Assembly: GCF_965641715.1 (NCBI RefSeq)
Contig: NZ_OZ282453.1
Source: Escherichia coli
GTDB taxonomy: Bacteria; Pseudomonadota; Gammaproteobacteria; Enterobacterales; Enterobacteriaceae
Direction: 5' to 3' (one strand)
Length of the DNA stretch: 64,000 nt
In this document: in pieces, positions 17,240 through 43,394 of the stretch
How positions within the stretch are numbered: position 1 is the stretch's first letter
How the letters are laid out: the number at the start of each line of letters is the position of its first letter
Program-made: the position numbers and the translations under genes
Notes under the pieces: generated by a model
What the model saw: only the letters and a program-made list of their open reading frames with translations
What the model was told of the DNA's origin: nothing
Databases searched by the model: none

Positions 17240-18364
17240 TCTTCTTCCCCTTAATATAAATGCACCTGCAACCACTCAGCCAAACGCTCAACGTCAAAAC
17301 CCGTAATCCATACTCCCACGCCAAAAACGTCTTCGATAAATATTCATCATATTTTCGAGGCACTTTTCAGAGATGCTCTTGGCAAGACGGGACTCAGGGG
17401 GTAAACCTTCCTGTAGTAAATTGCTTAGCGTCTGCTTAACTTTCCCGAGCGTATTTTTTCAACTACGGCAGCAAATGAGACGGTCTTAAAACCGTGCAGG
17501 ATAGGCCATATCTACAACGTGTTTACTACTTGAGCACACATTGTGATATGGCAGTCACCTTTCCGACAAATGGTGAACCGTCCCTGACGAACAACAACAT
17601 TAACGCATATCTCTTCATCGCCTGATCAAAGTAGCTGCCAACTATTATTCGCCTCAACAATGAGTTTTTTTACTAACGATTTCTACTACCTTCCCAAAGC
17701 GACCACAACAATCAAAAATATTGTTTACACATCAGTCTCATATCACCGGAGTAAGTTGACTATTGATAAACCATTTCAAGATATTAATAGCTGATCATAC
17801 TTCCCCAAAGTGCTTATTTATAGCGAAGGCAAATAGCATAAACTGAAGGGCGAATTGTTAAATCATACCGTGAATGAGCTGAAGAACAAGCATAAAAATT
17901 ATATCATTTACATGACTTATGTGTTTTAGTTAAATGATAAATAGGCAGTATAAAATCCAATTCAACAGCCGAGTTCAAGCGATTAATTTTTTGATGAGCT
18001 TATCAAGCACGAGCAGCGATACCAGCAAATCCACTTGGTTGCTTGAAGAATATGACTCCTTCAACACATAGCAGATTATCTCCGCCGTTGGTAGAGAACC
18101 GTTCACCGTTGTTAGTCAACAGTTATAAATTTATATTAATGATTAGAAGAATCTATCTCGGGGTAGATCATCAACATTACTTATTCTAAACCACGTTACA
18201 CATGATCTCCGGGGCAGCGAAGTCATCAAAAAAGAGTATTATAAAACTCCGCCCTTAAGGAGAAAGGTTTCCTGGCGGTTGTAATGCCGTTGACGATACA
18301 GCGCACAACACGGATATAAACAACCATTTGATTGATTAATATCTGAAGGGCTGTTTATATTTAA

Positions 18365-28217: not shown

Positions 28218-28901
28218 TTACTCTCTGAAGGTCTGAATTACGTCACTTATGAAACGAAAGTGTGGGAGGGCTGAAATGAACTCTTCACTGGCAGTCAGAG
28301 CATCAAGTTCAGGCTTTCTGCGAAAAGAGGTATCCAGAACGGTTACGGCGTTAACGTCTTCCATCCGAAACACCTGTAAATTTCTGGTGCGGGTAGCAAC
28401 AAGAAACCAGTTTTTGGACTGAAATATCAGACGGCGGGGAGCTACTGCTTCGTAGCTTTTACCGTTAACTAATAATGTAACGGCGCGGTAGTCGCGGATA
28501 GCTTCCGCCAGTTCCAGAAAACAGGCGGTTTGTGTAACTGGAGATGGCAGCCCTCCATGCCCTATAAGGCACGGCGAGCTTCCGGAGTTACTGGTAATCA
28601 GTCGAATTAACCTGCGATTCTGAGCCGGAATAATCCCTGAAATCCCGGAATTACGGATAAACGCAAAGGTGTTGGGTGAGTGCTCCCGGCCCGTTCGGCG
28701 GGTAAGTCGATAGCTTCCGCTGGAATGCTCAAGATCCAGATGGATTAGGCGTTGCTGAAAATCCCTCTGTAGGGTGCGTTCTGAGACACCAAATTCATCA
28801 GCTAACGCTTTAAGCTCCAGAGATTCGCCAGCTAGTAAGCGGGTGATAATGACCGATAGCCTGACAGACAGGCGGTCATAATGATCATGCTGTGTTTTCA
28901 T
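28218..28901 (-). CDS. HTH/WYL-domain transcriptional regulator (YfjR-like; from the ATG at 28901, the ORF track starts at 28988)
   Basis: N-terminal HTH LKALADEFGVSERTLQRDFQQ...; C-terminal WYL-like region. Confidence 0.6.
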   Translation of the reverse strand: MKTQHDHYDRLSVRLSVIITRLLAGESLELKALADEFGVSERTLQRDFQQRLIHLDLEHSSGSYRLTRRTGREHSPNTFAFIRNSGISGIIPAQNRRLIRLITSNSGSSPCLIGHGGLPSPVTQTACFLELAEAIRDYRAVTLLVNGKSYEAVAPRRLIFQSKNWFLVATRTRNLQVFRMEDVNAVTVLDTSFRRKPELDALTASEEFISALPHFRFISDVIQTFRE

Positions 28902-29216
28902 GGTGGGGACAGTCCTGTTCTCCCAAAATATCATGGTATTGATACGAGAGATTATGCCGTACAGGTACGACACGTTATGTCGTAGCAAAGGGGAGTGGAT
29001 AGAAAAAATGGCGAAGATGTGAAGAGTTGATTAATTCATTGAAACAAAATGAATTAATAATAATTTTGGGTAAAAGCGACGTCAAAATACGACATAACCT
29101 GTCGTATTTTGTTTTAGCCGGGAAAGGATAACTGCTACTTACTAAAATGATTTAGTGCTGAAAATATTTATAAGCCAATAAATAGACCGGTATTACGGAG
29201 TAACGCCCCGGCTATG

Positions 29217-30194
29217 TTAACGTGCCCGCTGTTTTATCGGCTCAAAAAACATATCCCAGAGATGTTCAGCCATACCCTCGTTAGTGAGCAAGGTATCCCT
29301 TGAGTAGCCAGGGCTGAAGACGCCCATTGATGGGCGAAAACCAAGGTTCTGGCCGTTATTGTCAATGGTTAAGATTTCATTGTAAGCATTGCCAATCACG
29401 CCATCCTGGCTATAACCAATATCGCCCATCCCCATATTTCGCCCGCTATTACGCCAGATTGCACATTGACCTACTTTGCTTCCCCCAATGTAGATCGCAC
29501 AAGTGAAGGCATCTGCGTCACGCTTATTAAAATCGACCTCTAACCCGGCATGGCGTTTTTTGAGTTCAGTCAGCGAGCCTTCAAAATAACGGGCGACATA
29601 TTCAAAACCGTCACGGCAGGCACGATCCTTATCAAGATCGGTAAAACGTTTTGGCAGTGAAAGGTTGCTCGAGCGTGGTGTAAAAACGGTATCCGTCGCC
29701 TGAAGCATTGGATTAGCCGGAGCTGGGGCGTGCACAATCTGTTGCGGCTTTTTCGCTTCCAAATTGGCAATAGCGCGGGAAACGGCATCGACAACCTGAA
29801 CATAGCCTTCATCATGGCTGGCAAATTTATCAATTGGCTTACCGTCAACAGTTGCCGCCAGAATGCGGCCAAACGGTAACATCTTCCACGCGCATTCTCT
29901 TAAGATCACCGGAATGACCACCGCCTCGCCCCGGCTATGTCGCTCCAGAGCGTTGGTCATTTCTACCTGATAGCAATAATCAGAAGCGATAAAATCACTG
30001 CTAATCAGCAACAGGATGATGTCTGCCTGAGAAAAGTAATGATCTATTTGGTTCTCAAACTCTTGTCCTGGAATGATGCGACGATCATGCCATGTCGTGA
30101 TCTTGCCCATGCGTTTCAGGGGGGAAAGATGCTTCTCAAGCTCATTGCGCAGAGCTTCGTCTGCATGAGAATAGGAAAAAACAAGAGAGGTCAT
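29217..30194 (-). CDS. TIR-domain protein with an uncharacterised C-terminal domain (325 aa)
   Basis: N-terminal TIR signature LVFSYSHADEALRNELEKHL...IILLLISSDFIASDYCYQVEMTNALER...VVIPVILREC; divergent from hsdM. Confidence 0.65.
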   Translation of the reverse strand: MTSLVFSYSHADEALRNELEKHLSPLKRMGKITTWHDRRIIPGQEFENQIDHYFSQADIILLLISSDFIASDYCYQVEMTNALERHSRGEAVVIPVILRECAWKMLPFGRILAATVDGKPIDKFASHDEGYVQVVDAVSRAIANLEAKKPQQIVHAPAPANPMLQATDTVFTPRSSNLSLPKRFTDLDKDRACRDGFEYVARYFEGSLTELKKRHAGLEVDFNKRDADAFTCAIYIGGSKVGQCAIWRNSGRNMGMGDIGYSQDGVIGNAYNEILTIDNNGQNLGFRPSMGVFSPGYSRDTLLTNEGMAEHLWDMFFEPIKQRAR

Positions 30195-30409: not shown

Positions 30410-32116
30410 ATGGACAACGCTGAACAGCAATTTCTGAACGATCTGGATACTAAGTTCTGGAAAGCCGCAGACAAGCTACGCGCCAATATGGACGCAGCCA
30501 ACTACAAGCATGTGGTACTTGGGCTTATCTTTCTGAAGTATGTTTCAGATGCCTTTGACGCACGCCAGAAGGAACTGAAAGGACTGTTTGAAGACAAGTC
30601 CAACCCGGACAACATTTACGCGCTGTCTCGTGACGATTACGACACAGAAGAGGCGTACCAGCAGGCGATCGCAGAAGAGCTGGAAGTTCAGGATTACTAC
30701 ACTGAGAAAAACGTCTTCTGGGTACCCAAACTGGCTCGCTGGGAAACGCTTAAAACCAATGCTGCTCTACCTGTAGGGACGGTTCTGGGGAAAGACGATA
30801 GCGGCAAAGATATCGTCATGACGTCAGTATCGAAGCTGATTGATATCGCTCTGGATACTATCGAAAACAGCAACCCGAAACTGAAAAACATCCTTAACTG
30901 TATCGGACACTATCAGCTTGGTAACGACCTGCTAATTAGCCTGATTAACGTTTTCTCCGATACCAGTTTCAGCGAACCCAAATACAATGGCGTGAAGCTC
31001 AATTTGAAGAGCAAAGATATTCTCGGCCACGTTTACGAATACTTCCTTGGTCAGTTTGCACTGGCGGAAGGCAAACAGGGCGGCCAGTATTACACGCCGA
31101 AAAGCATCGTTACGCTGATTGTTGAAATGCTCCAGCCCTACAATGGCCGCGTGTATGACCCGGCGATGGGATCTGGCGGTTTCTTCGTTTCCAGCGATCG
31201 CTTTATCGAAGCACACGCTGATGAAAAGCATTACAACGCCGCTGAACAAAAACGCAATATCTCCGTTTACGGGCAGGAGTCCAACCCTACCACCTGGCGT
31301 CTGGCTGCGATGAATATGGTGATTCGCGGTATTGATTTTAACTTCGGTAAACAAAACGCCGATACGTTCCTGAACGACCAGCACCCGGATTTACGTGCCG
31401 ATTTTGTTATGGCGAACCCGCCATTCAACATGAAGGAGTGGTGGAACGCCAAGCTGGAAAACGACGTGCGCTGGAAATACGGCACGCCGCCTCAGGGCAA
31501 CGCCAACTTTGCGTGGATGCAGCACATGATCCACCACCTGGCGCCAAAAGGCTCGATGGCGCTGCTGCTGGCGAACGGTTCGATGAGCTCTAACACCAAC
31601 AACGAAGGCGAGATCCGCCGCAACCTGATCGAAGCCGATCTGGTCGAGTGCATGGTCGCGCTGCCAGGTCAGTTGTTTACCAACACCCAAATCCCGGCCT
31701 GTATCTGGTTCCTGACCAAAGACAAATCCGGCGGTAACGGCAAAGCACACCGTAAAGGCGAAGTGTTGTTTATCGACGCGCGTCAGATTGGCTTTATGAA
31801 AGACCGCGTGCTGCGTGATTTTAGCCGTGAAGATATCGCCAGAATTGCTGATATCTTCCACGCCTGGCAGACGGATAAAGGCTATGAAGACGAAGCTGGA
31901 TTCTGTTTCTCCGCAACGCTGGAAGATATCCAGAAAAACGACTTTGTGTTGACCCCTGGGCGCTATGTCGGTGCGGCCGAGCAAGACGAAGACGATGAGC
32001 CTTTTGCCGAGAAGATGGCACGACTGACGGCGCAGCTGAAAGATCAGCTGGAAGAGAGCGCGAAGCTGGAAGCACAGATTAAGGCGAATCTGGGGGGGCT
32101 GGGTTATGAGTTCTAA
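30410..32116 (+). CDS. hsdM: Type I restriction-modification methyltransferase subunit HsdM
   Basis: N6-adenine methyltransferase motifs: DPAMGSGGFF (AdoMet binding) and NPPF (MANPPFNM). Confidence 0.9.
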   Translation: MDNAEQQFLNDLDTKFWKAADKLRANMDAANYKHVVLGLIFLKYVSDAFDARQKELKGLFEDKSNPDNIYALSRDDYDTEEAYQQAIAEELEVQDYYTEKNVFWVPKLARWETLKTNAALPVGTVLGKDDSGKDIVMTSVSKLIDIALDTIENSNPKLKNILNCIGHYQLGNDLLISLINVFSDTSFSEPKYNGVKLNLKSKDILGHVYEYFLGQFALAEGKQGGQYYTPKSIVTLIVEMLQPYNGRVYDPAMGSGGFFVSSDRFIEAHADEKHYNAAEQKRNISVYGQESNPTTWRLAAMNMVIRGIDFNFGKQNADTFLNDQHPDLRADFVMANPPFNMKEWWNAKLENDVRWKYGTPPQGNANFAWMQHMIHHLAPKGSMALLLANGSMSSNTNNEGEIRRNLIEADLVECMVALPGQLFTNTQIPACIWFLTKDKSGGNGKAHRKGEVLFIDARQIGFMKDRVLRDFSREDIARIADIFHAWQTDKGYEDEAGFCFSATLEDIQKNDFVLTPGRYVGAAEQDEDDEPFAEKMARLTAQLKDQLEESAKLEAQIKANLGGLGYEF

Positions 32117-33461
32117 GTTTCGGAAAGTAAAACTATGTGAAATCCTCTCATTTAAGACAGGTAAACTCGACTCGAATGCAGCAGTAGATAATGGTTGTTA
32201 TCCTTTTTTTACTTGCTCGCCAGTTACACTTTCGATTAATACGCATGCTTTTGACACTGAAGCAGTATTATTAGCTGGTAATAACGCAAATGGGGTATTT
32301 TCAGTAAAATACCACAATGGTAAGTTTAATGCTTACCAAAGAACATATGTTATTACTCCTCTGGATAATTCAGCGGTCAATGTGAAATGGCTTTATTTTA
32401 GAATAAAATATGTTACGTCAGAATTACAATCAATGTCAGTTGGCACTGCAACAAAATTCTTAACAAAAAAGATTTTGGATTCATTTGAGATTGAACTGCC
32501 AACTTTTGAAGAGCAAACATATCAAGCTCAGATTTTATGGGCGTTACAGGATAAATTAGCTAATAATGAAGCTATAAACCAAACTCTCGAACAAATGGCG
32601 CAAGCCCTGTTCAAAAGCTGGTTTGTCGATTTTGAACCGGTAAAAGCCAAAATGGCAGCGTTGGAAGCGGGCGGTTCGCAGGAAGACGCGACACGTGCCG
32701 CCATGACGGCAATTTCCGGGAAAGATGCTGATGCGTTGGTGGTTTTTGCGCGTGAACATCCTGAGCAATATGCCGAGTTAAAAGCCACGGCAGAACTGTT
32801 TCCGTCTGCGGTGCAGGAAAGTGAGTTGGGGGCGATTCCTAAAGGATGGGGGGTGGCGTCAATTAGTGAGATGGGGAAGATTACTTGTGGCAAAACTCCG
32901 TCAAAAAAAGAACCAAAGTATTACGGTGGTGATGTTCCATTCATAAAGATACCAGATATGCATGGGCAACTCTTTGTGCTTAAAACTAATGAATATTTAA
33001 GCGAAGTCGGTTCAAAGTCGCAACTAAAAAAACTTGTGCCCGCTAACTCTATCTGTGTTAGTTGTATAGCTACTATTGGTGTTGTTTCTATCACCAATGA
33101 ACCATCTCATACCAATCAGCAAATAAATTCGGTTACACCTTATAAGAGTTCATTACTTTATTATCTTTATTTTTGTATATTGGGATTGAAAGATCATCTT
33201 CACGTTTTAGGTAGCGCAGGTAGTGCAACCTTAAATGTCAATACGTCTACTTTCTCAGGAATTAAAATCGCTCAGCCTGATGCTAAAGTATTGGAGTTAT
33301 TTCATGCCAAATGTACACAATTATTTAATGAGATTAAATCGCTCTGTGTACAAACTGAATCACTTGCACAACTACGAGACACCCTCCTCCCCAAACTCCT
33401 CTCCGGAGAAATTACGTTACCGGATGCCGAGGAAATAGCCAAGGAAGCTGACTATGTTTAA
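32106..33461 (+). CDS. hsdS: Type I restriction-modification specificity subunit HsdS
   Basis: Overlaps the hsdM stop; two AT-rich variable segments alternating with GC-richer conserved segments, as expected for two target-recognition domains. Confidence 0.85.
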   Translation: MSSKFRKVKLCEILSFKTGKLDSNAAVDNGCYPFFTCSPVTLSINTHAFDTEAVLLAGNNANGVFSVKYHNGKFNAYQRTYVITPLDNSAVNVKWLYFRIKYVTSELQSMSVGTATKFLTKKILDSFEIELPTFEEQTYQAQILWALQDKLANNEAINQTLEQMAQALFKSWFVDFEPVKAKMAALEAGGSQEDATRAAMTAISGKDADALVVFAREHPEQYAELKATAELFPSAVQESELGAIPKGWGVASISEMGKITCGKTPSKKEPKYYGGDVPFIKIPDMHGQLFVLKTNEYLSEVGSKSQLKKLVPANSICVSCIATIGVVSITNEPSHTNQQINSVTPYKSSLLYYLYFCILGLKDHLHVLGSAGSATLNVNTSTFSGIKIAQPDAKVLELFHAKCTQLFNEIKSLCVQTESLAQLRDTLLPKLLSGEITLPDAEEIAKEADYV

Positions 33462-34647
33462 AGTCGATCAGCCCAGTAATAGCCTGCAACCGCTTCAGGA
33501 AACCACCTTCACTAACGCGGGTTTCACCGAGCGCTACCACTTACAGGAGTGGCTGGCAAAGCATCCGCAAGCATTGACTCGCAACAGCGATGACGAACTA
33601 CTTATCATCCAGAAAGAGTTTGCCGGGTTTGACGACACCAAAGAGCGGTTAGATCTGCTGGCGATCGACAAAGACGGCAATCTGGTGATCATCGAGAACA
33701 AGCTCGATGATTCCGGGCGTGATGTCGTATGGCAGGCGCTGAAGTACGCGGGCTACTGCGCGAATCTACGCAAAGAACATATTGTTGAGATCTTCCAGCG
33801 TTACCTCGATCAGAACGATCCAGAAGAAACACGCCCAGCCTCTGATGTGCTCGCAGAATTCCTCGAACATGAAAGCCTGGATGAAGTGCAAATTAACCAA
33901 AGCCGTTCCCAGCGTGTGATGATGGTTGCGGCAAATTTCCGCAAGGAAGTTACCAATACTGCGCTCTGGCTGATGCAGTTCAACATCCGTGTCCAATGCT
34001 TTAAGGTCACGCCTTACCGTTATGGAAATGATGTATTCATCGACATCCGCCAGGTTATTCCCACACCGGAAGCCGAATCCTACATGATCGGTATGGCGCA
34101 GAAGGAAGCAGAAGAACAATCAACCAGCGGTGAACTGAAACAGAGCCAACGCCTGCGCAAGGCGTTCTGGACGCAGATGCTGGAGAAATTTCATGCCAGC
34201 GACTGTACGCTGTATAACAACATCAGCCCGTCTATGGATCACTGGTTATGTGCAGGCTCTGGCATAAGTGGTATGCCTTATAGCCTAATATTCAGCAAGA
34301 AGGAAATCCGCGTAGAATTATGGATTTCGCGAGCATCGGCAGACATCAACACCATGGCGTTGAACTGGCTTGAACAACACCGCACATCTGTCGAAGAGGT
34401 ATTCGGCAACCCACTGGAGTGGCTATCGCTACCTGGTAAAAAAGCCTGCCGTATTCAATACCGCCAAAAAATAGATGGCTTCCAGCAGGAAAATTGGCCG
34501 CAAATGATCGACTGGCTGGTGGAACATATGACCCGTTTTGAGAATGCGCTTTCGCCGTATCTGCCACAGCTTAACCAGTTGATCAAGCAGACCTTTAACG
34601 GGCATGATGAAGCTGAAAATACAACAGAAGAAGCCGAACACGTATAA
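33454..34647 (+). CDS. Uncharacterised 397-aa protein inside the RM operon, with a PD-(D/E)xK-like motif
   Basis: Start overlaps the hsdS stop; 16 bp before hsdR; RLDLLAIDKDGNLVIIENKLDD resembles a D...E-x-K nuclease core; no Walker A. Confidence 0.6.
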   Translation: MFKVDQPSNSLQPLQETTFTNAGFTERYHLQEWLAKHPQALTRNSDDELLIIQKEFAGFDDTKERLDLLAIDKDGNLVIIENKLDDSGRDVVWQALKYAGYCANLRKEHIVEIFQRYLDQNDPEETRPASDVLAEFLEHESLDEVQINQSRSQRVMMVAANFRKEVTNTALWLMQFNIRVQCFKVTPYRYGNDVFIDIRQVIPTPEAESYMIGMAQKEAEEQSTSGELKQSQRLRKAFWTQMLEKFHASDCTLYNNISPSMDHWLCAGSGISGMPYSLIFSKKEIRVELWISRASADINTMALNWLEQHRTSVEEVFGNPLEWLSLPGKKACRIQYRQKIDGFQQENWPQMIDWLVEHMTRFENALSPYLPQLNQLIKQTFNGHDEAENTTEEAEHV

Positions 34648-34662
34648 CACAGGACGTTACCG

Positions 34663-37600
34663 ATGCTTACCGAAGACGACTTAGAACAGCTTTGCCAGGG
34701 CTGGTTTGCCGAACAAGGTTGGGAAATCCATCATGGGCCAGATATTGCCCCCGATGGCTGTAACCCGCAACGCGCCAGCTATCATGATGTATTCCTGACG
34801 CCCGTGTTGAACGCCTGCCTGCAAAAAATCAACCCGCACCTGCCCACTGACGTCTTCGAACAGGTCATCTCCCGTATTACTCGCGCTGAAAGCCCGGATC
34901 TGATTGCCAGTAACAAAGCCTTTCATCACTGGTTGCTGGAAGGGGTTCCGGTACAGTACCGTCGCGACGAAGAACTTATCCACGACCACGCCCTGCTGGT
35001 GGATTTTAGCCAGCCGCAAAACAACCGTTTTATGGTGGTCAATCAAATGACTATCAGCGGAACGAAACAGCCTCGCCGCCCGGATATCATCTGCTTTATT
35101 AACGGAATACCACTGGCGGTTGTGGAACTAAAAAGCCCTGTCGATGACAAGGTAGATATCTGGGATGCGTACCACCAGTTACAGACCTATAAAGATGAAA
35201 TACGCGACCTGTTTATCAGCAATGAAGCGTTGATTGTCAGTGATGGTTATCTGGCGCGTGTGGGGTCCCTGACCGCCACGGAAGAACGTTTTATGCCGTG
35301 GAAGACCATCAGCAATGAAAATGACAAGCCGTTGCTGGAATGGCAACTGGAAACTATGGTACGGGGTTTCTTCAACCGGGAATTGCTGCTCGACTATATC
35401 CGCTATTTCGTTCTGTTTGAAAATAACGATGAAAGGCTAATTAAGAAAATAGCTGGTTATCACCAGTTCCACGCGGTGCGTGAGGCCGTGCAGGCGACGA
35501 TCGTTGCTTCGACCGGTAAGCAACTGGTACTGCACAGTAATATTCAGCCAGGCAGTAAGAAAGCAGGCGTGGTCTGGCATACGCAGGGTTCCGGTAAAAG
35601 CATCTCCATGTGTTGCTATGTCGGCAAACTGTTGCAACAGCCGGAGATGGGCAACCCGACGATTGTTGTTGTGACCGATCGTAACGATCTGGACGGCCAG
35701 CTTTATGGTACATTCTGCCAGGCACAGGAGCTGCTCAAGCAAATGCCGGTACAGGCAGATGATCGTGAAACATTGCGTGATCTGCTTGCAACTCGCGATG
35801 CTGGCGGCATTATCTTTACCACCGTGCAGAAATTCTCCCCGGAAGAAGGGGAAAACGCCCATCCGATTCTCAATGGACGCAGCAATATCGTTGTTATTTC
35901 CGATGAAGCGCACCGCAGCCAGTACGGCATGAAAGCCAACCTGGATCGTAAAACCGGCGTCTATAAATACGGTTACGCTAAACATATGCGCGACGCGCTA
36001 CCTAACGCCTCGTTTCTGGGATTTACCGGTACACCGGTTTCGGCAGAGGATCGCGATACTCGCGCTGTATTTGGCGATTACGTCTCAATTTATGATATTC
36101 AGGACGCTGTGGACGATGGCGCAACGGTGCCTATTCACTATGAATCCCGGCTGGCAAAACTCGATCTCAATCATGAAGAGCTGGCGGCGCTGTCCGATCA
36201 GGTTGAAGAACTGATTGAGGACGATGAGCTGGATCAGAGAGAAAAAACCAAAGGTGAATGGAGCCGTCTGGAGAAACTAGTTGGTGCTAAACCACGTCTT
36301 CAGCAGATCGCTGCCGATCTGATTTCTCACTTTGAGAAGCGCAATACCGTAATGGACGGCAAGGCGATGATTGTCGCCATGAGCCGTGAAATCTGCGTCC
36401 ATCTTTACGATGAAATTATTGCGTTGCGTCCGGAGTGGCACGATGACGATCCTGAAAAAGGGCAAATCAAAATCGTGATGACCGGTACAGCATCTGATAA
36501 GGCAATGCTGCAACCGCATATCTACAACAAACGGACTAAAAAACGGCTGGAATCCCGCTTCAAGAATGTGAACGACCCGCTGAAGCTGGTGATAGTGCGT
36601 GATATGTGGCTGACCGGCTTTGATGCCCCATGCTGTCACACTATGTATATCGACAAACCGATGCGCGGCCATAACCTGATGCAGGCTATTGCCCGTGTCA
36701 ACCGGGTATTCAAAGACAAGCCCGGCGGGCTGGTGGTGGATTATATTGGTATCGCCAATGAGCTGAAACTGGCGCTGAAAACTTATACCGATGCAAACGG
36801 TAAAGGTGATGCGACCGTCAACGCTGAAGAAGCACTGGCAATCATGCTGGAAAAGCTGGACATCATCCACGGTATGTTTGCCAAAACGGCAACGTCAGCG
36901 GGTTTTGATTACACCGGCTTTGAAGCTCATGCGCAGAAGTTGCTAGTACCAGTTGCAAACTATGTGCTCGGCCTTGAAGACGGTAAGAAGCGTTTTCTCG
37001 ATAACGTACTGGCAATTACTAAAGCCTGGTCGCTTTGCTGTACGCTGGATGCGGCGCAGCCTTATAAACTAGAGATTGCTTTCTTGTCGGCGGTAAAAGC
37101 TGCTATCAGCAAATTCACCAGTGTGGACAAAAAAATAAGCCAGGCTGAGAAGAACTCCGCGCTGAAACAGATTCTGGATAATGCCGTAATTGCTAACGGC
37201 GTGGATGATATTTTCACGCTGGCTGGTCTGGATAAACCGAATATTGGCTTGCTTTCAGATGAATTCTTGCAGGAAGTCCGCGATATGCCATATCGAAATC
37301 TGGCGGTAGAGCTGCTGGAAAAACTGATTAATGACGGTATCCAGTCCCGTACAAAAAACAATGTAGTGCAGGAGAGGAAATATTCAGAACGTCTTCAGGC
37401 TGTATTGATTAAATACAACAACCGGGCTATTGAGACGGCGCAGGTGATTGAAGAGCTGATCCAGATGGCGAAGGATTTTCAGTCTGCAATGGCGCGTGAT
37501 GATGCGCTTGGCCTGAATCCTGACGAGATCGCTTTCTACGATGCACTGGCAGAAAACGAAAGCGCCGTCCGGGAGTTAGGAGATGAGGTACTTAAGAAAC

Positions 37601-37797
37601 TGGCGATAGAAGTGACGCTGAAGCTGCGCCAATCCACTACCGTTGACTGGCAGGTACGGGAAAGCGTTCGTGCAAGGCTGCGTATCCTGGTTCGCCAGAC
37701 TCTGCGTCGGTATAAGTATCCGCCAGATAAAACGCCGGGTGCGGTGGAGTTAATTTTGAAACAAGCGGAAGTTATTTCGAATCATTGGACGATGTGA
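34663..37797 (+). CDS. hsdR: Type I restriction-modification endonuclease/helicase subunit HsdR
   Basis: 1044 aa; Walker A TQGSGKS, DEAH box [11 protein letters not shown], and further helicase motifs. Confidence 0.9.
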
Positions 37798-37861
37798 ATT
37801 TTAGGCTGGCTGTATCAACTGCCAGCCATATTTAAATTATCATCAGTTAAAAGGCACAATT

Positions 37862-39604
37862 GTGAGTAAATATAGCGAAATACAACGTCAATTAGATGAA
37901 GTAAGCCCAATACCGAAAGGTATTCCTAAAGTATACCTTTTAGGGGACACTGGAGCAGGAAAGACGACTTTTATTCGAAAAATATTAGGAACTGAAAATA
38001 CCAAATTCCCTACCACCAGACAAAGTAGAACAACCGTTGCACCAACTGAGTATGTAATATGTAAATCATCCAATTATGAATTAACGATTCTGTTAAAATC
38101 TTTTGATGAGATTAATGGATATGTCAGAGAAATTCTAAAAGAAGCATTAGAGAAATCATTGAAAGGTGAAGATGTTAAAAGAAGCTTACGTCAAACAAAT
38201 GATCAGCGGTTTCGTTTATACTATCTTCTTGACGTCAGTGATATTGCAAATTTTGCTGAAGAAGTTATCTCTCTTACACCTCTTCTTTCCGAAAAAATTG
38301 ACGAATTAAAAGAAATTTTTACCGATGATATAACGGATCAAGATGAGTATATTAGTTTTGCTATTGATGAATTAAATGATAAAGTTGAATGTATCCAAAA
38401 TAAGATTATGGACTCCATTCAGAGTAATGTAATGTCCATTTGTAATGGAAGTATGTTAAGTAATGAATCACAGATATTTAAATACATTTCAACCGAAAAA
38501 GAAGACTTTATCAAAAAATGTAAAAAAATATTATCAAGTGATAAAGAGTCTATATCACCTGTTGTCGAGTATGCGAGACTGAGTGGAGAACTCAAATCAG
38601 AATGGGTGAATAGTTGTGCAGAAATAGTTATTATTGATGGTGAAGGTATTGGGCATAATACAAAAGAAACGGCACAACTAGACTCCAGGCATTATGATTT
38701 CTTTTATGATGTTAACTCAATCTTGCTTATCGAAGAGTCAAAAAAACCTTTTATTGCTGGGGGCAAAAATGCATTAAAAAGTATTTTTCAGCGTGGATAT
38801 GGTGATAAATTAAAACTAATCTTCACTAAGCTGGATGAAGTTATACCTTATGATTCAGACGAATCAACAGATGAAGATAGAATTGATTATGTAAAAGATG
38901 GTCTCAATAATGTTCTGGATGCATTAAAAAAAGAAGAGGTGAAGTGTAACATTGATATCGAGGATATTTATTTCATCGGAGATCTTGATAAACCTGAGCA
39001 TAACGCAAGACTTGAATTGGCTTTTAATTCCATATATGAAAACACAGTTTCCATGATAAATAATGATGAGGTTTTCATTGAGCCTAAGTATGACTTTGAG
39101 TTATTGGCCTTGCATATAAATTCTACTTCTAATGATTTTAAAACATACTATAGAAAATTATTAGATAGAGAACATTGGAAAACAATAGAAGCATTTAATC
39201 GACGGATGTATTCAAATATAGATGGGTTTAGGATGTTTATGCCTATTACCGATTTTGAGGAAACTGTGAGTAAATATATTGGTGGTTTTTTGACCTCGCC
39301 AATGGATTGGAAATATGAAGCGGTTGATAACTTGAAGCAAAAAAGTATTAATAAAATCAAGAGGGAATTCAACAAGCTTATTCTTAGCTTTATTCGCAAT
39401 AAGTTAATTATGGAACCATATGAAAAATGGAAAGAATCCTATTTCTTAGCTGGCACTGGTTCAACGATTAGTAGAAAACGTGAGATAACTACTATTTTTA
39501 GTGACACAATTATTGATGCCTCCCAAACTGAACGCTTTAAGGTGTTCAAGGATCAAATTAAAGAGATTGTTGTCAAGTCAATAGAGAACTGTAAGTCAAT
39601 ATAA
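37862..39604 (+). CDS. AT-rich P-loop GTPase-like protein (580 aa, GTG start)
   Basis: G1 GDTGAGKTT, G3-like DGEGIG, G4-like TKLD; much more AT-rich than the flanking hsdR. Confidence 0.6.
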   Translation: MSKYSEIQRQLDEVSPIPKGIPKVYLLGDTGAGKTTFIRKILGTENTKFPTTRQSRTTVAPTEYVICKSSNYELTILLKSFDEINGYVREILKEALEKSLKGEDVKRSLRQTNDQRFRLYYLLDVSDIANFAEEVISLTPLLSEKIDELKEIFTDDITDQDEYISFAIDELNDKVECIQNKIMDSIQSNVMSICNGSMLSNESQIFKYISTEKEDFIKKCKKILSSDKESISPVVEYARLSGELKSEWVNSCAEIVIIDGEGIGHNTKETAQLDSRHYDFFYDVNSILLIEESKKPFIAGGKNALKSIFQRGYGDKLKLIFTKLDEVIPYDSDESTDEDRIDYVKDGLNNVLDALKKEEVKCNIDIEDIYFIGDLDKPEHNARLELAFNSIYENTVSMINNDEVFIEPKYDFELLALHINSTSNDFKTYYRKLLDREHWKTIEAFNRRMYSNIDGFRMFMPITDFEETVSKYIGGFLTSPMDWKYEAVDNLKQKSINKIKREFNKLILSFIRNKLIMEPYEKWKESYFLAGTGSTISRKREITTIFSDTIIDASQTERFKVFKDQIKEIVVKSIENCKSI

Positions 39605-39706
39605 TAAGATAGAACAGTCCCGGATAATATTCGGGACTCATACACTTACAGATGGAGCTATGAATTTAGCAGTAAGAGTATTTGTGATTATTTAAGGAAA
39701 GTAACA

Positions 39707-40672
39707 ATGCCTTTAGATTTAAGTAACACTTTAGTTATTGGCATTAGCGCGACTGCGCTTTTTGACATGAGCGAATCCGACCATATGTTTCGGGAAACCT
39801 TTGCGACTGATCCTGATAGCGCCATTGAAAAATACCGCGCTTATATGCTAGAACACGAAAACCAACCTTTACAGCCCGGAACAGGCTACCCCTTAGTCAA
39901 AGCGTTGCTGGGTCTGAACCAGTACCGTCAACCGGATGATAAATCGCCGTTGGTTGAGGTTGTTGTGATGTCACGTAACAGCCCTGATACAGGTATCCGC
40001 GTTCTCAATACCATTCGCCATGACAAACTCGATATTACACGTTCAGCTTTTACCGCAGGCGAAACCGTTGCCGATTACCTTGATGCCTTTGATGTGGATC
40101 TGTTTTTAACGACCAACGTTGAAGATGCGCAAAAGGTGATTGATTCCCGATTCTGCGCCGCTGCAATCCTGAAAGATCCACCTTCTGACGCATCTGATAT
40201 CCCAGAAGGGCAAGTGCGCATTGCTTTTGATGGCGACGCGGTACTTTTTTCCGATCAAAGCGAACTGGTTTATAAGACCCAAGGAATGGCTGCCTTCCAT
40301 GCTCAGGAAGACGCGCAGCAGGATATCCCTATGGAAGAGGGGCCTTATGCCACTTTGCTAAAAAAAATAGCCAAGCTTCAGGAACGATTGCCGACCCGCG
40401 TTGAGTATTCTCCTGTTCGTATTGCGCTGGTGACAGCCCGAAATAGCCCTTCGGAAATGCGCGTTATTAAAACGCTAAGAAGCTGGGGGGTATATGTCGA
40501 TGAAGCTTTTTTTCTTGGCGGTGTAGAGAAAACAAAAGTTCTGAAGGCGTTTAGGCCACACATTTTCTTTGACGATCAGGATGTGCATTTGATCGCGGCT
40601 GCAAAGGTAGTACCTTCTGGTAAAGTACCTTATGCCAGTAACTCCGAACTTGCAGAACGTGAAGCATCGTGA
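39707..40672 (+). CDS. 5'-nucleotidase-family protein (HAD-like)
   Basis: HAD-type motif IAFDGDAVLFSD and C-terminal FFDDQDVH; family assignment from memory. Confidence 0.5.
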   Translation: MPLDLSNTLVIGISATALFDMSESDHMFRETFATDPDSAIEKYRAYMLEHENQPLQPGTGYPLVKALLGLNQYRQPDDKSPLVEVVVMSRNSPDTGIRVLNTIRHDKLDITRSAFTAGETVADYLDAFDVDLFLTTNVEDAQKVIDSRFCAAAILKDPPSDASDIPEGQVRIAFDGDAVLFSDQSELVYKTQGMAAFHAQEDAQQDIPMEEGPYATLLKKIAKLQERLPTRVEYSPVRIALVTARNSPSEMRVIKTLRSWGVYVDEAFFLGGVEKTKVLKAFRPHIFFDDQDVHLIAAAKVVPSGKVPYASNSELAEREAS

Positions 40673-40749
40673 TTATCGCTGACAAACCATTTAGTCATTA
40701 AGACTGAATGGTTTGTATGCCACTCGCAAAATATCTGCCCTACCTCAAA

Positions 40750-41670
40750 TCAATGCTCTCCTCTGAACACCTCTTTTCTGTGCCATTCCACAAACTGCTC
40801 GCCCGGATAATTTTCTTTAACCGGTGGCAACGCAATCGCCTTTCCCGCAAAATCCCAGAACAGTCGCTGTACCACTCCACCACCATTTACCGCGCCGGAA
40901 ACCACCACACGCATATTTTCATCCAAGCCAATCGAACCGCGATCAAACGCTTTATGATGGATTGCGCACAATGCCAGGCCATTAGGTACTTCACAAGGGC
41001 CATGGTGCTGCTTCCATCTGATATGAGCAGCTTCCAGAGCAATTGGCGCATTGTCGTGGCGCATGTTGAAGCCGCAGATCGCACACTGATAATTGTAAGC
41101 ACGTAGCACCATCTGGCGGAACTTCGGATCGCGTTGACGGAGAGAGGTGCGAATATCAAAACCCATCTCGTCAGCTATCTCTTCCTGAATACTGGCCGGG
41201 AAATGCGCCTCCAGGAGCTGCTGCGCCAGCGTATCAATTAACCTGTGATTTTTTGCCACCAACGCAAAATTATCGGCATCAAATCCACCAGCGACATTAT
41301 ATTCAATGAGTTCACGTCGGGGCGGCTGGCGGCTACCACTGGTTGAGCACAGTTGTGCGTTTTGTAGTTCCCAGAAGCCATCGCCCTTCAGACGCCAGAA
41401 CGGCATGTCCGGGCGCTGGTCACGGCGCTGCGGTCCATAACGTTCCAGAAGATCCAACAGGGGCTCGTAGATTTCAGAACCATAGTTAAACAGGCGACCA
41501 TGACCCTGCCGATAGTGTGAGAGGACGTGCAGCAGCAATAATGGCTTATGTGGCGCACGTTGTTCGCCTTTGCGCCAGATGGTGATATTTGATATCGCTT
41601 GCTTTAGGGCTTTGTCAGAGGTCATTGCGTTGAAGAATCCATGAGCACATATTTGCGATGATGCTCGCAA
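40750..41670 (-). CDS. HNH-nuclease-domain protein (306 aa) beside the integrase
   Basis: C-terminal His-Me finger YQCAICGFNMRHDNAPIALEAAHIRWKQHHGPCEVPNGLALCAIHHKAFDRG; N-terminal region shares the KPLLLL motif with the fragment at 8904-9146. Confidence 0.6.
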   Translation of the reverse strand: MRASSQICAHGFFNAMTSDKALKQAISNITIWRKGEQRAPHKPLLLLHVLSHYRQGHGRLFNYGSEIYEPLLDLLERYGPQRRDQRPDMPFWRLKGDGFWELQNAQLCSTSGSRQPPRRELIEYNVAGGFDADNFALVAKNHRLIDTLAQQLLEAHFPASIQEEIADEMGFDIRTSLRQRDPKFRQMVLRAYNYQCAICGFNMRHDNAPIALEAAHIRWKQHHGPCEVPNGLALCAIHHKAFDRGSIGLDENMRVVVSGAVNGGGVVQRLFWDFAGKAIALPPVKENYPGEQFVEWHRKEVFRGEH

Positions 41671-41840
41671 CTATATGTACATTCAAGGCATTATTGCAGA
41701 CATCCTTTTTGCCTGACTGCTCTGTACCTGGCAGATGAAATTCTGATAACAACGGTAAAAAATACAGCGACCAACCAGTCCTAAGCGGGCTGGTTGGTCT
41801 TTTAAATTTAAACATCAGCCGAGGAATAACGGCATTCAAC

Positions 41841-43109
41841 TCACTCGCCATTACCCCGATTGATCTTCGCATAGTCAAACGGCGTAATCGCTCTCTCCCG
41901 ATTGGCATCCAGAAAATCAGCCCACCACTGCAACATCAGCTTGCGCTCATCCAGGTGTTCCGCTTTATGGATATACGCCGCCCTCACCGAGCTGCGTTCC
42001 ATATGGCTCATCTGCCTTTCCACCGCATCCTTCGACCATAACCCTGACTCAATCAATGAGCTACAGGCCATTGTGCGGAAGCCGTGGCCGCAAACTTCAA
42101 CCTTAGTGTCATAACCCATCACCCGTAGCGCACTGTTTACCGTGTTCTCGCTCATGGGCTTACGCGGATCGTGATCGCCAATAAAAATCAGCTCATGTTC
42201 GCCACAGAACTGTTTTATCTGCTTCAGGATCGCCAGCGCCTGCTTTGAAAGCGGCACCAGATGCGGTGTACGCATCTTTGAACCTCGCTGAGAATGTTTC
42301 ACACCGGGAATCGGTTCTCGCTCAGGCGGGATGGTCCACATTGACGTTTCAAAATCGATTTCTGACCAGCGAGCAAAACGTAGCTCACTGGATCGAATAA
42401 AGATAAGCAGAGTGAGTTCTGTCGCCCAGCGGGTTAGCGGCCTGCCTGTATAGCTATCTATTTTCTCAAGTAACTCAGGGATACGCTTTAATTCCAGCGC
42501 CGGGCGATGCTGTCGATTGCCAGAGGCGACTGCTCCAGCCATCTCCTGCGCTGGGTTGTAATCAATCAGCCCACTTTGCACTGCATAACGCATAATGGCC
42601 GTGGTACGCTGTTGGAGACGAGAAGCCACCTCAAGACGTCCAGACAGTTCCACCGCTTTAATGGGTGCCAGTAAGTCACGAGTGCCCAATTCGGCAATAT
42701 TGCGAGAACCAATTGCCGGGAAGATATTGTCCTCCAGGCTCTTTTTTACACGATTAGCATGATCTTCTGACCATTTTTGGTTGGTTACGAGCCACTCTCT
42801 GGCAACCTTCTCGAAAGTAATAATCTCTTTCGCCTGCTCTTCTTTCACAGCACGCTTATGCTCACGAGGATCGATACCAGCAGCTACCAGCTTTCTGGCC
42901 TCTTCCCTTTTCTTCCTGGCATCTGCCAGCGAAACATCCGGGTAAACGCCGAACGCCATCAAATGTTGTTTACCGCCAAAACGGAAACGAAATCGCCAAT
43001 ACTTTGAACCGCCAGGTTTTACAAGTAAGGACATGCCATCGCCGTCAACAAGTGAATACTCTTTCTCCTCAGGTTTCGCAGAGCGAACTTTAGTATCCGT
43101 TAGGGCCAT
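41841..43109 (-). CDS. intB: P4-type tyrosine integrase (from the ATG at 43109; the ORF track starts at 43187)
   Basis: MALTDTKVRSAKPEEKEYSLVDGDG...; C-terminal ...HGFRTMACSSLIESG... catalytic region; about 200 bp from the leuX 3' end. Confidence 0.9.
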   Translation of the reverse strand: MALTDTKVRSAKPEEKEYSLVDGDGMSLLVKPGGSKYWRFRFRFGGKQHLMAFGVYPDVSLADARKKREEARKLVAAGIDPREHKRAVKEEQAKEIITFEKVAREWLVTNQKWSEDHANRVKKSLEDNIFPAIGSRNIAELGTRDLLAPIKAVELSGRLEVASRLQQRTTAIMRYAVQSGLIDYNPAQEMAGAVASGNRQHRPALELKRIPELLEKIDSYTGRPLTRWATELTLLIFIRSSELRFARWSEIDFETSMWTIPPEREPIPGVKHSQRGSKMRTPHLVPLSKQALAILKQIKQFCGEHELIFIGDHDPRKPMSENTVNSALRVMGYDTKVEVCGHGFRTMACSSLIESGLWSKDAVERQMSHMERSSVRAAYIHKAEHLDERKLMLQWWADFLDANRERAITPFDYAKINRGNGE

Positions 43110-43270
43110 AATGGTCTTCCTTCCATTGGTATCTCGTGAGTATACAAGCAATATCGAATCGGCAAATATACTCATTAGTATACTCACAAGCCTGTTGATG
43201 TGGGTTGGTTCAGGTTGACTTCAGTTGAGGAGAAAAGCTGGAAAAGCCTTGCGTGGCGCGGATTTCAGGC

Positions 43271-43309: not shown

Positions 43310-43394
43310 TGGTGCCGAAGGCCGGACTCGAACCGGCACGTATTTCTACGGTTGATTTTGAATCAACTGCGTCTACCGATTTCGCCACTTCGGC
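43310..43394 (-). tRNA. leuX: tRNA-Leu (leuX), intact with CCA end
   Basis: Reverse complement GCCGAAGTGGCGAAATCGGTAGACGCAGTTGATTCAAAATCAACCGTAGAAATACGTGCCGGTTCGAGTCCGGCCTTCGGCACCA; 85 nt. Confidence 0.95.

What the first reader, a model, noticed from the sequence alone, without database searches (positions are those of the whole stretch)
39707..41670. 5'-nucleotidase-like protein and HNH nuclease as integrase-adjacent cargo
Seen in sequence: a 321-aa protein with HAD-type aspartate motifs (IAFDGDAVLFSD, FFDDQDVH) and a convergent 306-aa protein with a C-terminal His-Me finger (CAICGFNMRHDNAPIALEAAHIRW...NGLALCAIHHKAFDRG). Inference: nucleotide-depleting enzymes and HNH nucleases are recurrent defence effectors, and the site next to the integrase is a typical cargo hotspot. 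The pairing may be coincidental.
Basis: partly seen in the sequence, partly recalled or inferred. Interest (0 to 1): 0.45.

Follow-up and report, generated by a model that had tools for sequence, protein, structure and literature searches.

The report
EcoWI-type restriction enzyme beside stray nucleotidase
Next to the integrase of a tRNA-Leu genomic island sit a near-identical copy of EcoWI, a known restriction enzyme that cuts phosphorothioate-modified DNA, and a separately mobile 5'-nucleotidase gene already catalogued as an untested phage-defence candidate; they are neighbours by accident, not a two-gene system.

Summary

- **HNH protein.** It most likely starts at the ATG at 41625, giving 291 aa rather than 306. 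It is 98% identical to the E. coli W protein named "phosphorothioated DNA-binding restriction endonuclease" (NF045808, 443 bits against a cutoff of 180). This is the EcoWI family, already shown to cut GpsAAC/GpsTTC DNA and to restrict dnd+ plasmids.
- **321-aa protein.** It is a full-length PF06189 5'-nucleotidase and matches PADLOC candidate PDC-S08. It is a tandem HAD duplication: the N-half has lost the catalytic residues and the C-half keeps all four HAD motifs.
- **The pairing is not conserved.**
  - None of 80 species-level loci carrying the nucleotidase has an EcoWI-like gene within 10 kb.
  - In E. coli, 100 of 5426 genomes carry the nucleotidase and 3045 carry a PT-restriction-like gene. 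Only 48 carry the pair.
  - Breakpoint mapping shows each gene moves as its own cassette.
- **Setting.** The region is a defence island holding a ThsB-like TIR protein, a Type I R-M system with embedded PDC-S11, an orphan 580-aa P-loop protein, PDC-S08, the EcoWI-like enzyme and the integrase at tRNA-Leu(CAA).

The only open question is what the nucleotidase does. Its mobile relatives repeatedly sit among defence systems, while distant relatives sit in conserved housekeeping neighbourhoods. Overall this is ordinary and largely known.

The parts
39707..40672 (+). 5'-nucleotidase of Pfam family PF06189, matching PADLOC candidate PDC-S08. It is a tandem HAD-fold duplication. The N-half (about 1-156) is catalytically dead: S14/T16 replace the two Asp of motif I, and T135/T136 replace the DD of motif IV. 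The C-half (about 170-310) keeps motif I D175-x-D177, motif II T243, motif III K275/K277 and motif IV D289-D290.
   Evidence: Pfam E 4.6e-119; PADLOC PDC-S08 5.3e-134; 99% identical to E. coli W WP_001115625.1; invariant motifs; AF2 model with mean pLDDT 83 shows two similar halves; hhalign of N-half against C-half gives probability 98%, E 2e-13.
40682..40716 (.). Inverted repeat (ACAAACCATT, 15-nt loop, AATGGTTTGT) in the 77-nt spacer between the two convergent genes. It is a possible bidirectional terminator.
   Evidence: Read directly from the sequence. The consensus terminator scan did not flag it, so its function is inferred.
40750..41625 (-). EcoWI-type phosphorothioate-dependent restriction endonuclease, 291 aa. 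It has an N-terminal sulfur-binding domain (H26-K27-P28 and P74-F75-W76) and a C-terminal HNH/His-Me finger (C181, C184, H201, N215, C220, H223, H224). The maximal ORF extends to a TTG at 41670.
   Evidence: NF045808 PT-DNA_restrict 442.6 bits against cutoff 180; HNH_2; residues 8-142 match the ScoMcrA SBD (5zmo) and residues 174-248 match the TagI HNH (6ghs); 286/291 identical to E. coli W WP_000199891.1; mass 33.4 kDa, as published for EcoWI.
41841..43187 (-). P4-family tyrosine integrase of the island. The probable start is the ATG giving 422 aa, as annotated in E. coli W.
   Evidence: NF007246 integrase domain 1e-82; RefSeq annotation of the homologous locus.
43310..43394 (-). tRNA-Leu(CAA), the leuX-type integration site. 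Core genes (ahr, idnK, idnD, idnO) follow.
   Evidence: ARAGORN; Rfam tRNA 59.4 bits; synteny with E. coli W.
37862..39604 (+). Context: an orphan 580-aa P-loop NTPase with 32% GC, immediately upstream of the nucleotidase. It is a separate cassette.
   Evidence: Only weak P-loop hits in Pfam, NCBIfam and PADLOC; GC content; found with and without the nucleotidase elsewhere.
30410..37797 (+). Context: a Type I R-M system. It comprises hsdM (30410-32116), hsdS (32106-33461), an embedded DUF4268/PDC-S11 gene (33454-34647) and hsdR (34663-37797).
   Evidence: NCBIfam hsdM and hsdR matches and a weak hsdS match; PDC-S11 1.1e-177.

Best explanation
These are two unrelated single-gene cassettes. They happen to lie side by side in the variable, integrase-proximal end of a defence island inserted at tRNA-Leu(CAA).

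(1) The gene at 40750-41625 (-) is an allele of EcoWI, a modification-dependent restriction endonuclease. From the published work on EcoWI:
- The enzyme is a dimer.
- The N-terminal sulfur-binding domain recognises phosphorothioate linkages in GpsAAC/GpsTTC.
- The C-terminal HNH domain uses Mg2+ to cut both strands N7/N6 from the site.
- Incoming plasmid DNA made in Dnd+ donors is therefore destroyed, while the unmodified host genome is spared. That phage DNA from such donors is restricted in the same way is inferred, not shown.

(2) The gene at 39707-40672 (+) is a stand-alone PF06189 HAD-type 5'-nucleotidase. Its C-terminal half has a complete catalytic site. Its N-terminal half is a conserved but catalytically dead copy, possibly an allosteric or oligomerisation module.
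- It is predicted to hydrolyse (deoxy)nucleoside 5'-monophosphates to nucleoside plus phosphate.
- Its mobile relatives are embedded among defence systems, so an anti-phage role is plausible but untested. One possible route is draining the dNMPs that phages salvage or modify.

Shown here: domain identity, orthology, the cassette boundaries and the lack of conserved linkage. Inferred: the substrate specificity of this EcoWI allele, any enzymatic activity of the nucleotidase, and any defence role for it.
For: Identity of the HNH protein:
- NF045808 at 442.6 bits against a cutoff of 180, and HNH_2.
- Matches to solved SBD and HNH structures.
- 98% identity to the E. coli W protein. All five differences lie in the N-terminal 91 residues, and the HK-P and PFW motifs are unchanged.
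- EcoWI biochemistry and in vivo restriction of dnd+ plasmids are published (PMC7461809).
- The E. coli W protein's calculated mass of 33,410 Da matches the published 33.4 kDa.

Identity of the nucleotidase.

Independence of the two genes:
- None of 80 species-level loci with the nucleotidase has an EcoWI-like ORF within 10 kb.
- In E. coli, the nucleotidase is in 100 genomes and PT-REase-like sequence in 3045. The pair occurs in 48.
- Strain E9 has the same R-M system, PT-REase and integrase but lacks 37802-40755.
- selC-site islands share only the nucleotidase gene itself, directly beside their integrase.
- K. pneumoniae has an extra 300-aa gene between the two.

Defence-island setting of the nucleotidase:
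- In the window: ThsB-like protein, Type I R-M and PDC-S11.
- Elsewhere: Gabija, an NsnB-like ATPase, PD-T4-2/NsnA, ZorE, PDC-S25 and PDC-M01.
Against: - The module nucleotidase + PT-REase + integrase is kept intact at about 97% identity in 48 E. coli genomes, and a similar arrangement exists in K. pneumoniae. Some local co-selection therefore cannot be excluded.
- The EcoWI papers in the library do not give an accession. Equating EcoWI with WP_000199891.1 rests on the strain name, the RefSeq product name and the matching mass.
- Five substitutions in the sulfur-binding domain (A6T, H33Y, H37L, Q88H, Q91E) could alter sequence preference.
- For the nucleotidase, no experiment supports defence. 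Homologues at 45-55% identity sit in conserved core neighbourhoods: Lachnospiraceae (DUF1653, the nucleotidase, an SfsA-MutY fusion, a glycosyltransferase, PAP2, glyA), Psychrobacter and Amphritea. Ten neighbours tested at other, mostly more distant, homologues had no PADLOC hits.
Confidence: 0.82

Rival explanations
1. The nucleotidase and the HNH enzyme form a functional two-gene system. For example, the nucleotidase could remove phosphorothioate-bearing or other modified mononucleotides released when restricted DNA is degraded. Those nucleotides would then not be salvaged into host DNA and would not provoke self-restriction.
For: - The two genes are adjacent, convergent and only 77 nt apart.
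- The pair plus the integrase is conserved as a block in 48 E. coli genomes. Both genes occur within 1.4 kb of each other in K. pneumoniae.
- In one E. coli strain both are pseudogenes together.
Against: - None of 80 species-level loci with the nucleotidase has an EcoWI-like gene within 10 kb.
- The closest allele of the PT-REase (99.2%, strain E9) has no nucleotidase.
- More than 2800 E. coli genomes have a PT-REase-like sequence of 60-80% identity, and the one such locus examined has no nucleotidase next to it.
- EcoWI restricts dnd+ plasmids when expressed alone from pACYC184 (PMC7461809).
- Homology breakpoints fall between the two genes.
Confidence: 0.05
2. The nucleotidase is not a defence gene at all. 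It is a metabolic or house-cleaning nucleotidase carried as passenger cargo of the island.
For: - Homologues in Lachnospiraceae, Psychrobacter and Amphritea lie in conserved core-genome neighbourhoods.
- Sequence conservation is extreme for a defence gene: 70-85% identity across Gammaproteobacteria, Desulfuromonas and Desulfomicrobium.
- No sensor domain or partner is evident.
- PDC-S08 has no experimental validation in the searched literature.
- The family is nearly absent from phages (3 of 50,697 records).
Against: - In E. coli it is accessory (100 of 5426 genomes) and lies in integrase-bearing islands in each of the loci examined, at three or more different sites.
- Relatives at 48-96% identity in other taxa are flanked by Type I R-M, Gabija, an NsnB-like ATPase, PD-T4-2/NsnA, ZorE, PDC-S25 and PDC-M01.
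- PADLOC's authors flagged it independently.
Confidence: 0.35
3. The nucleotidase works with the upstream 580-aa P-loop NTPase as a two-gene module. The NTPase would act as sensor or regulator and the nucleotidase as effector.
For: - The two genes are co-directional with a 102-nt gap.
- The 580-aa gene followed by the nucleotidase recurs in K. aerogenes, K. pneumoniae, Buttiauxella and an identical metagenomic contig. The flanks on the far side differ between these.
Against: - GC content is 32% for the P-loop gene against 47% for the nucleotidase.
- The P-loop family occurs without the nucleotidase in Citrobacter, Pectobacterium, Aeromonas and Vibrio.
- The nucleotidase occurs without it in E. 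coli W, in selC islands, and in Yersinia, Pseudoalteromonas and others.
- The 582-aa protein at the same slot in E. coli W is unrelated.
Confidence: 0.08
4. The nucleotidase is an accessory of Type I restriction-modification systems.
For: - A Type I R-M system lies within 10 kb in the window and in E. coli W.
- The same holds in three other E. coli islands and in Enterobacter, Pseudoalteromonas, Pseudomonas endophytica, a Magnetococcales MAG, a Bacillota MAG and a Campylobacteraceae MAG.
- The nucleotidase often comes directly after hsdS.
Against: - 74 of 80 species-level loci have no Type I R-M within 10 kb.
- One to three variable genes usually separate them.
- Type I R-M loci are known hubs of defence islands, so co-location is expected for any defence-island resident.
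Confidence: 0.08

Closest known systems
EcoWI (E. coli W), an SBD-HNH phosphorothioate-dependent restriction endonuclease of Type IIM/IV; NCBIfam NF045808
   Same: - 291 aa, 98% identical, with the same SBD + HNH architecture.
- Identical HNH domain and identical HK-P and PFW motifs.
- Same genomic position beside the leuX integrase, and the same nucleotidase neighbour.
   Different: - Five substitutions in the N-terminal 91 residues (A6T, H33Y, H37L, Q88H, Q91E).
- The cargo upstream of the nucleotidase differs from E. coli W.
- The activity of this allele has not been measured.
ScoMcrA and SprMcrA (Streptomyces), PT-dependent Type IV enzymes
   Same: Homologous sulfur-binding domain (5zmo, 7cc9) and an HNH effector.
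   Different: - There is no SRA domain.
- Similarity is low (E about 1e-5).
- According to PMC7461809, EcoWI-type enzymes cut at a fixed distance with Mg2+, unlike the Streptomyces enzymes.
PADLOC PDC-S08 / Pfam PF06189 (the 5'-nucleotidase family that Pfam names for cytosolic 5'-nucleotidase; the link to eukaryotic cN-IA is from my own knowledge)
   Same: Full-length, high-scoring match to both models, with HAD motifs I-IV intact in the C-half.
   Different: - PDC-S08 is only a candidate, and no defence phenotype or bacterial substrate is reported in the library searched.
- No solved structure is related by sequence or by overall fold.
HAD phosphatase effectors of defence systems: CARF-HAD (Chp) in type III CRISPR, and PUA-Calcineurin-HAD
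   Same: HAD-fold phosphatases that attack nucleotide pools to stop phage (PMC12715507; bioRxiv 10.64898/2026.01.15.699771).
   Different: - Those effectors carry or bind a sensor (CARF, or a PUA-Cal hexamer) and remove phosphate from (d)NTPs.
- The protein here has no such sensor domain and no such partner gene next to it. It belongs to a different HAD family that is annotated as acting on monophosphates.

Membership tests
EcoWI-type SBD-HNH PT-dependent restriction endonuclease (NF045808) | Full-length match to the family model above the curated cutoff | tested here: met
   442.6 bits against a cutoff of 180, covering residues 21-303 of the 306-aa ORF on profile positions 2-284 of 284.
EcoWI-type SBD-HNH PT-dependent restriction endonuclease (NF045808) | N-terminal sulfur-binding domain with the HR/HK and (Y)P sulfur-recognition residues | tested here: met
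   - Residues 8-142 align to the ScoMcrA SBD 5zmo (2.7e-5), with H26-K27 opposite H-R and P74-F75-W76 opposite P-F-W.
- The same 291-aa architecture on the contig carrying the identical 580-aa protein (L090) has a precomputed PF26340 DNA-SBD_ScoMcrA hit.
- The Y of the YP motif is M73 here, as it is in the E. coli W protein.
EcoWI-type SBD-HNH PT-dependent restriction endonuclease (NF045808) | C-terminal HNH / His-Me finger with Cys/His zinc ligands | tested here: met
   HNH_2 at 1.1e-9; TagI HNH 6ghs at 1.6e-5; C181, C184, H201, N215, C220, H223 and H224 located.
EcoWI-type SBD-HNH PT-dependent restriction endonuclease (NF045808) | Preferential cleavage of phosphorothioate-modified DNA and restriction of dnd+ DNA in vivo | not testable with these tools
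   Published for EcoWI (PMC7461809). Inferred for this allele from 98% identity.
EcoWI-type SBD-HNH PT-dependent restriction endonuclease (NF045808) | Host lacks a dnd modification cluster of the same specificity | tested here: inconclusive
   No Dnd or Ssp match among the window ORFs scanned with PADLOC. Only 64 kb of the genome is visible.
HAD-superfamily 5'-nucleotidase, Pfam PF06189 | Full-length family match and the four HAD catalytic motifs | tested here: met
   PF06189 at 4.6e-119. D175-x-D177, T243, K275/K277 and D289-D290 are invariant in 11 homologues. The HAD-like fold of each half is supported by the AF2 model and by half-length PDB matches to HAD phosphatases.
HAD-superfamily 5'-nucleotidase, Pfam PF06189 | Hydrolysis of nucleoside 5'-monophosphates | not testable with these tools
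   No bacterial member was found characterised in the searched literature.
PADLOC phage-defence candidate PDC-S08 | Match to the PDC-S08 model and residence in defence islands | tested here: met
   - 444 bits.
- Window neighbours: ThsB-like protein, Type I R-M, PDC-S11 and a PT-REase.
- Neighbours in other taxa: Gabija, an NsnB-like ATPase, PD-T4-2/NsnA, ZorE, PDC-S25 and PDC-M01.
PADLOC phage-defence candidate PDC-S08 | Demonstrated protection against phage | not testable with these tools
   The only paper in the library containing 'PDC-S08' holds a single occurrence of the name, so it cannot be a functional study.
Hypothetical two-gene nucleotidase + HNH system | Conserved co-occurrence of the two genes across divergent genomes | tested here: not met
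   - None of 80 species-level loci has both.
- E. coli counts are 100, 3045 and 48.
- Cassette breakpoints fall between the genes.
- Strain E9 lacks the nucleotidase.
Sensor-coupled HAD nucleotide-depletion effectors (CARF-HAD, PUA-Cal-HAD) | A fused or adjacent sensor (CARF domain, or a PUA-calcineurin partner) | tested here: not met
   The only Pfam domain is PF06189. The neighbours are a P-loop orphan and the PT-REase.

The most novel reading that the evidence does not exclude
The mobile clade of PF06189 nucleotidases (PDC-S08) could be a genuine stand-alone anti-phage effector of a new mechanistic type.
- It would be a monophosphate-level 'drain' that dephosphorylates the dNMPs phages depend on. 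These are either salvaged from degraded host DNA or are the monophosphate intermediates at which phages build modified bases such as hm-dCMP or hm-dUMP.
- The conserved but catalytically dead N-terminal HAD copy would act as an allosteric nucleotide sensor.
- This would complement the modification-targeting restriction enzymes it sits beside.
Probability: 0.2. Interest if true: 0.6.

Novelty: already known. Interest (0 to 1): 0.2.

Why it matters
**Annotation.** The HNH gene can be named as an EcoWI allele. This tells us the host is very unlikely to carry GpsAAC/GpsTTC phosphorothioation, and that it should resist plasmids and phages coming from Dnd+ donors.

**Defence-system discovery.** The result removes a false lead, because nucleotidase plus HNH is not a system.

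**The residual question.** A very highly conserved, internally duplicated 5'-nucleotidase hops as a single-gene cassette between defence islands of distant bacteria, while its more distant relatives are housekeeping genes. A simple phage-challenge and substrate-profiling experiment on this gene would either validate or retire PADLOC candidate PDC-S08.

Tried and rejected
- **Two-gene system hypothesis.** Rejected by the 80-locus survey, the E. coli counts and the breakpoint mapping.
- **Link between the nucleotidase and the upstream 580-aa P-loop protein.**
  - The adjacency recurs only in closely related enterobacterial islands. It is absent in more distant relatives.
  - The 582-aa protein at the same slot in E. 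coli W is unrelated.
- **Link to Type I R-M.** Enriched (6 of 80 species loci, plus the E. coli islands) but not obligatory.
- **Solved-structure relatives of the nucleotidase.**
  - None was found by sequence.
  - Foldseek found only half-length HAD matches and spurious two-lobe glycosyltransferase matches.
- **Literature on PDC-S08, or on PF06189 in defence.** Nothing functional was found.
- **PHROGs.** There was no phage family for the nucleotidase. A tblastn search of phage genomes gave three short records only, including cyanophage AS-1.
- **Distal attachment-site repeat of the tRNA 3' end within the window.** None was found.
- **Consensus promoter and terminator scan of 39.4-42.0 kb.** Matches were not above shuffled expectation.
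- **Rfam scan of 37-44 kb.** Only the tRNA was found.
- **EcoWI accession.** It could not be found in the two EcoWI papers or in the held supplement.
Full report
**Observation.** ORF listing confirms a 321-aa ORF at 39707-40672 (+) and a convergent 306-aa maximal ORF at 40750-41670 (-). A P4-family integrase at 41841-43187 (-) and tRNA-Leu(CAA) at 43310-43394 (-) lie just beyond them. Past the tRNA come ORFs syntenic with E. coli ahr, idnK, idnD and idnO. The site is therefore the leuX integration hotspot of an E. coli-like chromosome. The left end of the window carries fimI, fimE, fimB and nanM.

**The HNH protein.**
- It scores 442.6 bits against NCBIfam NF045808, "phosphorothioated DNA-binding restriction endonuclease" (cutoff 180), over the whole profile. 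It also carries a Pfam HNH_2 domain.
- Against solved structures, residues 8-142 align with the sulfur-binding domain of ScoMcrA (5zmo) and SprMcrA (7cc9). Residues 174-248 align with the HNH domain of TagI (6ghs).
- A megablast search found the same nucleotidase, HNH and integrase block at about 97% identity in 48 complete E. coli genomes, including E. coli W.
- RefSeq annotates the E. coli W gene as 291 aa. The window protein read from the ATG at 41625 is 286/291 identical to it. All five differences fall within the first 91 residues, and the HNH domain is identical.
- EcoWI is named after E. coli W. Its published predicted mass of 33.4 kDa equals the 33,410 Da calculated for this E. coli W protein. 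The papers held here do not print an accession, so this identification is strong but indirect.
- EcoWI has been characterised (PMC7461809):
  - It is a Mg2+-dependent dimer.
  - It prefers GpsAAC/GpsTTC and cuts at N7/N6, leaving 1-nt 3' overhangs.
  - It works on fully and hemi-modified sites.
  - Expressed alone from pACYC184, it abolishes transformation by dnd+ plasmids.

**The nucleotidase.**
- It is a full-length PF06189 5'-nucleotidase (E 4.6e-119). It matches PADLOC model PDC-S08, a single-gene "phage defence candidate" (5.3e-134). NCBIfam and PHROGs have no model for it.
- It is 99% identical to the E. coli W neighbour of EcoWI.
- Homologues are numerous: at least 7994 clusters were scored in one search. 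They are unusually conserved, with 70-85% identity to proteins from Shewanella, Pseudoalteromonas, Photobacterium, Azotobacter, Desulfuromonas and Desulfomicrobium.
- An AlphaFold2 model (mean pLDDT 83, pTM 0.83) shows two halves with the same secondary-structure order. A profile-profile comparison of the N-half against the C-half gives 98% probability, E 2e-13.
- The C-half keeps the HAD motifs: D175-x-D177, T243, K275/K277 and D289-D290. At the equivalent positions the N-half has S14/T16 and T135/T136. It is therefore a dead but strongly conserved copy.
- No solved structure is close. Only half-length HAD phosphatase matches appear.

**Is the pair a system?** Four tests say no.

1. *Cross-species survey.*
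   - A scan of one genome per species returned 80 loci encoding relatives of the nucleotidase, at 42-96% identity and from many phyla.
   - I called ORFs in 10-kb flanks, clustered them, and searched them with the EcoWI-like protein.
   - The only hits were the two E. coli loci I had fetched separately. None of the 80 species loci had one.
2. *E. coli counts.* The nucleotidase is present in 100 of 5426 complete genomes. PT-restriction-like sequence is present in 3045. The adjacent pair is present in 48.
3. *Alternative contexts.*
   - At tRNA-Sec (selC) islands the nucleotidase sits directly against the integrase with no HNH gene.
   - A 65%-identical allele sits beside an HrgA gene and a Type I R-M system.
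   - The closest PT-REase allele (99.2%, strain E9) lies in an island with the same R-M system and integrase but no nucleotidase.
   - In K. pneumoniae a 300-aa gene is inserted between the two.
4. *Breakpoints.*
   - Homology to the E9 island stops at 37801 and resumes at 40756.
   - Homology to E. coli W starts at 39696.
   - Homology to selC islands covers only 39602/39688 to 40651/40672, which is the nucleotidase gene alone.

Each gene is thus a separate cassette. I also tested whether the upstream 580-aa P-loop protein is a partner. That adjacency recurs in Klebsiella and Buttiauxella islands. The P-loop family also occurs alone in Citrobacter, Pectobacterium, Aeromonas and Vibrio, and the nucleotidase often occurs without it. 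The 582-aa protein in the same slot of E. coli W is unrelated.

**Setting.** The segment from about 29 to 43 kb is a defence island:
- a ThsB-like TIR protein (2.2e-156);
- Type I hsdM and hsdS, an embedded DUF4268/PDC-S11 gene, and hsdR;
- the orphan P-loop protein;
- PDC-S08;
- the EcoWI-like enzyme;
- the integrase.

No complete E. coli genome in the collection has this exact mosaic. The best covers 71%. A metagenomic contig carries the identical 580-aa protein followed by a nucleotidase, an SBD-HNH gene and an integrase of the same sizes and in the same order.

**Is the nucleotidase a defence gene?** The evidence is mixed.

*For a defence role:*
- In E. coli it is accessory, and every locus examined lies in an integrase-bearing island.
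- Of the 80 species loci, 6 have a Type I R-M system within 10 kb, often with the nucleotidase directly after hsdS.
- Immediate neighbours at these and other island loci include Gabija GajA/GajB, an NsnB-like ATPase, PD-T4-2/NsnA, ZorE, PDC-S25 and PDC-M01A/B.

*Against a defence role:*
- Homologues in Lachnospiraceae, Psychrobacter and Amphritea sit in conserved housekeeping neighbourhoods.
- Ten neighbours tested at other, mostly more distant, homologues have no PADLOC match.
- No defence experiment exists in the searched literature.

HAD phosphatases are proven defence effectors elsewhere, in CARF-HAD and PUA-Cal-HAD systems. Those are sensor-coupled and act on (d)NTPs, whereas this protein has no sensor domain or partner. 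My working model is a monophosphate-level drain on phage nucleotide salvage or on modified-nucleotide synthesis, with the dead N-half as a regulatory module. This is inference only.

**Verdict.** The HNH enzyme is a known, characterised restriction enzyme family member. The nucleotidase is a known but untested defence candidate. The pairing is coincidental. Interest is low, apart from the open function of PDC-S08 and the unannotated P-loop family next to it.

Noticed in passing
window 37862-39604 (+): A 580-aa P-loop protein (GDTGAGKT) with 32% GC and no Pfam, NCBIfam, PADLOC or PHROG family.
- It belongs to a length-conserved (about 583 aa) uncharacterised family with about 315 relatives.
- It occurs as a lone insertion in Pectobacterium and Aeromonas, and directly beside an integrase in Vibrio.
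- Here it sits between a Type I R-M system and PDC-S08, so it is a plausible unrecognised single-gene defence candidate.
   Followed up: partly
window 29217-30194 (-): A 324-aa protein with a full-length match to the PADLOC ThsB (TIR-like) model (2.2e-156). No ThsA is adjacent. The neighbours are a WYL-domain protein (28218-28988) and a small GTPase-family protein (27165-28178).
   Followed up: no
window 33454-34647 (+): A DUF4268 / PDC-S11 gene (1.1e-177, with a weak NucS-like N-terminus) is embedded between hsdS and hsdR, and its start overlaps the hsdS stop. The same embedded arrangement occurs in E. coli E9, Buttiauxella and Citrobacter.
   Followed up: partly
window 8961-9125 (+): A remnant of a second PT-restriction-endonuclease paralogue lies downstream of the ORF after nanM. 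Only the first 54 codons remain, at 64% identity to the intact gene. Many E. coli carry an intact paralogue of about 70% identity at this nanS-proximal position. The variable island therefore probably spans roughly 8-43 kb of the window.
   Followed up: partly
window 39707-40672; loci L006-L085: The PF06189 protein is an internal tandem duplication of the HAD fold with a dead N-terminal copy. It is 70-85% identical between Enterobacteriaceae, marine Gammaproteobacteria and Desulfobacterota-type organisms. That is unusually high for an island-borne gene.
   Followed up: yes
phage record DQ115828.1 (cyanophage AS-1), hit H120: One of only three phage records with a PF06189-like ORF (37% identity over 89% of the protein). 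A phage-encoded member of the family hints at a role in nucleotide-pool manipulation during infection.
   Followed up: no
window 10302-12533 (-) and 12530-17275 (-): Two large overlapping-stop ORFs (743 aa and 1581 aa) inside the island have no NCBIfam or PADLOC match at E <= 1e-5.
   Followed up: no
window 41769-41799: A 13-bp-stem GC-rich hairpin lies about 40 nt downstream of the integrase stop codon, in the 215-nt gap before the PT-restriction gene. The T-run is on the + strand. It probably insulates the two co-directional genes.
   Followed up: no
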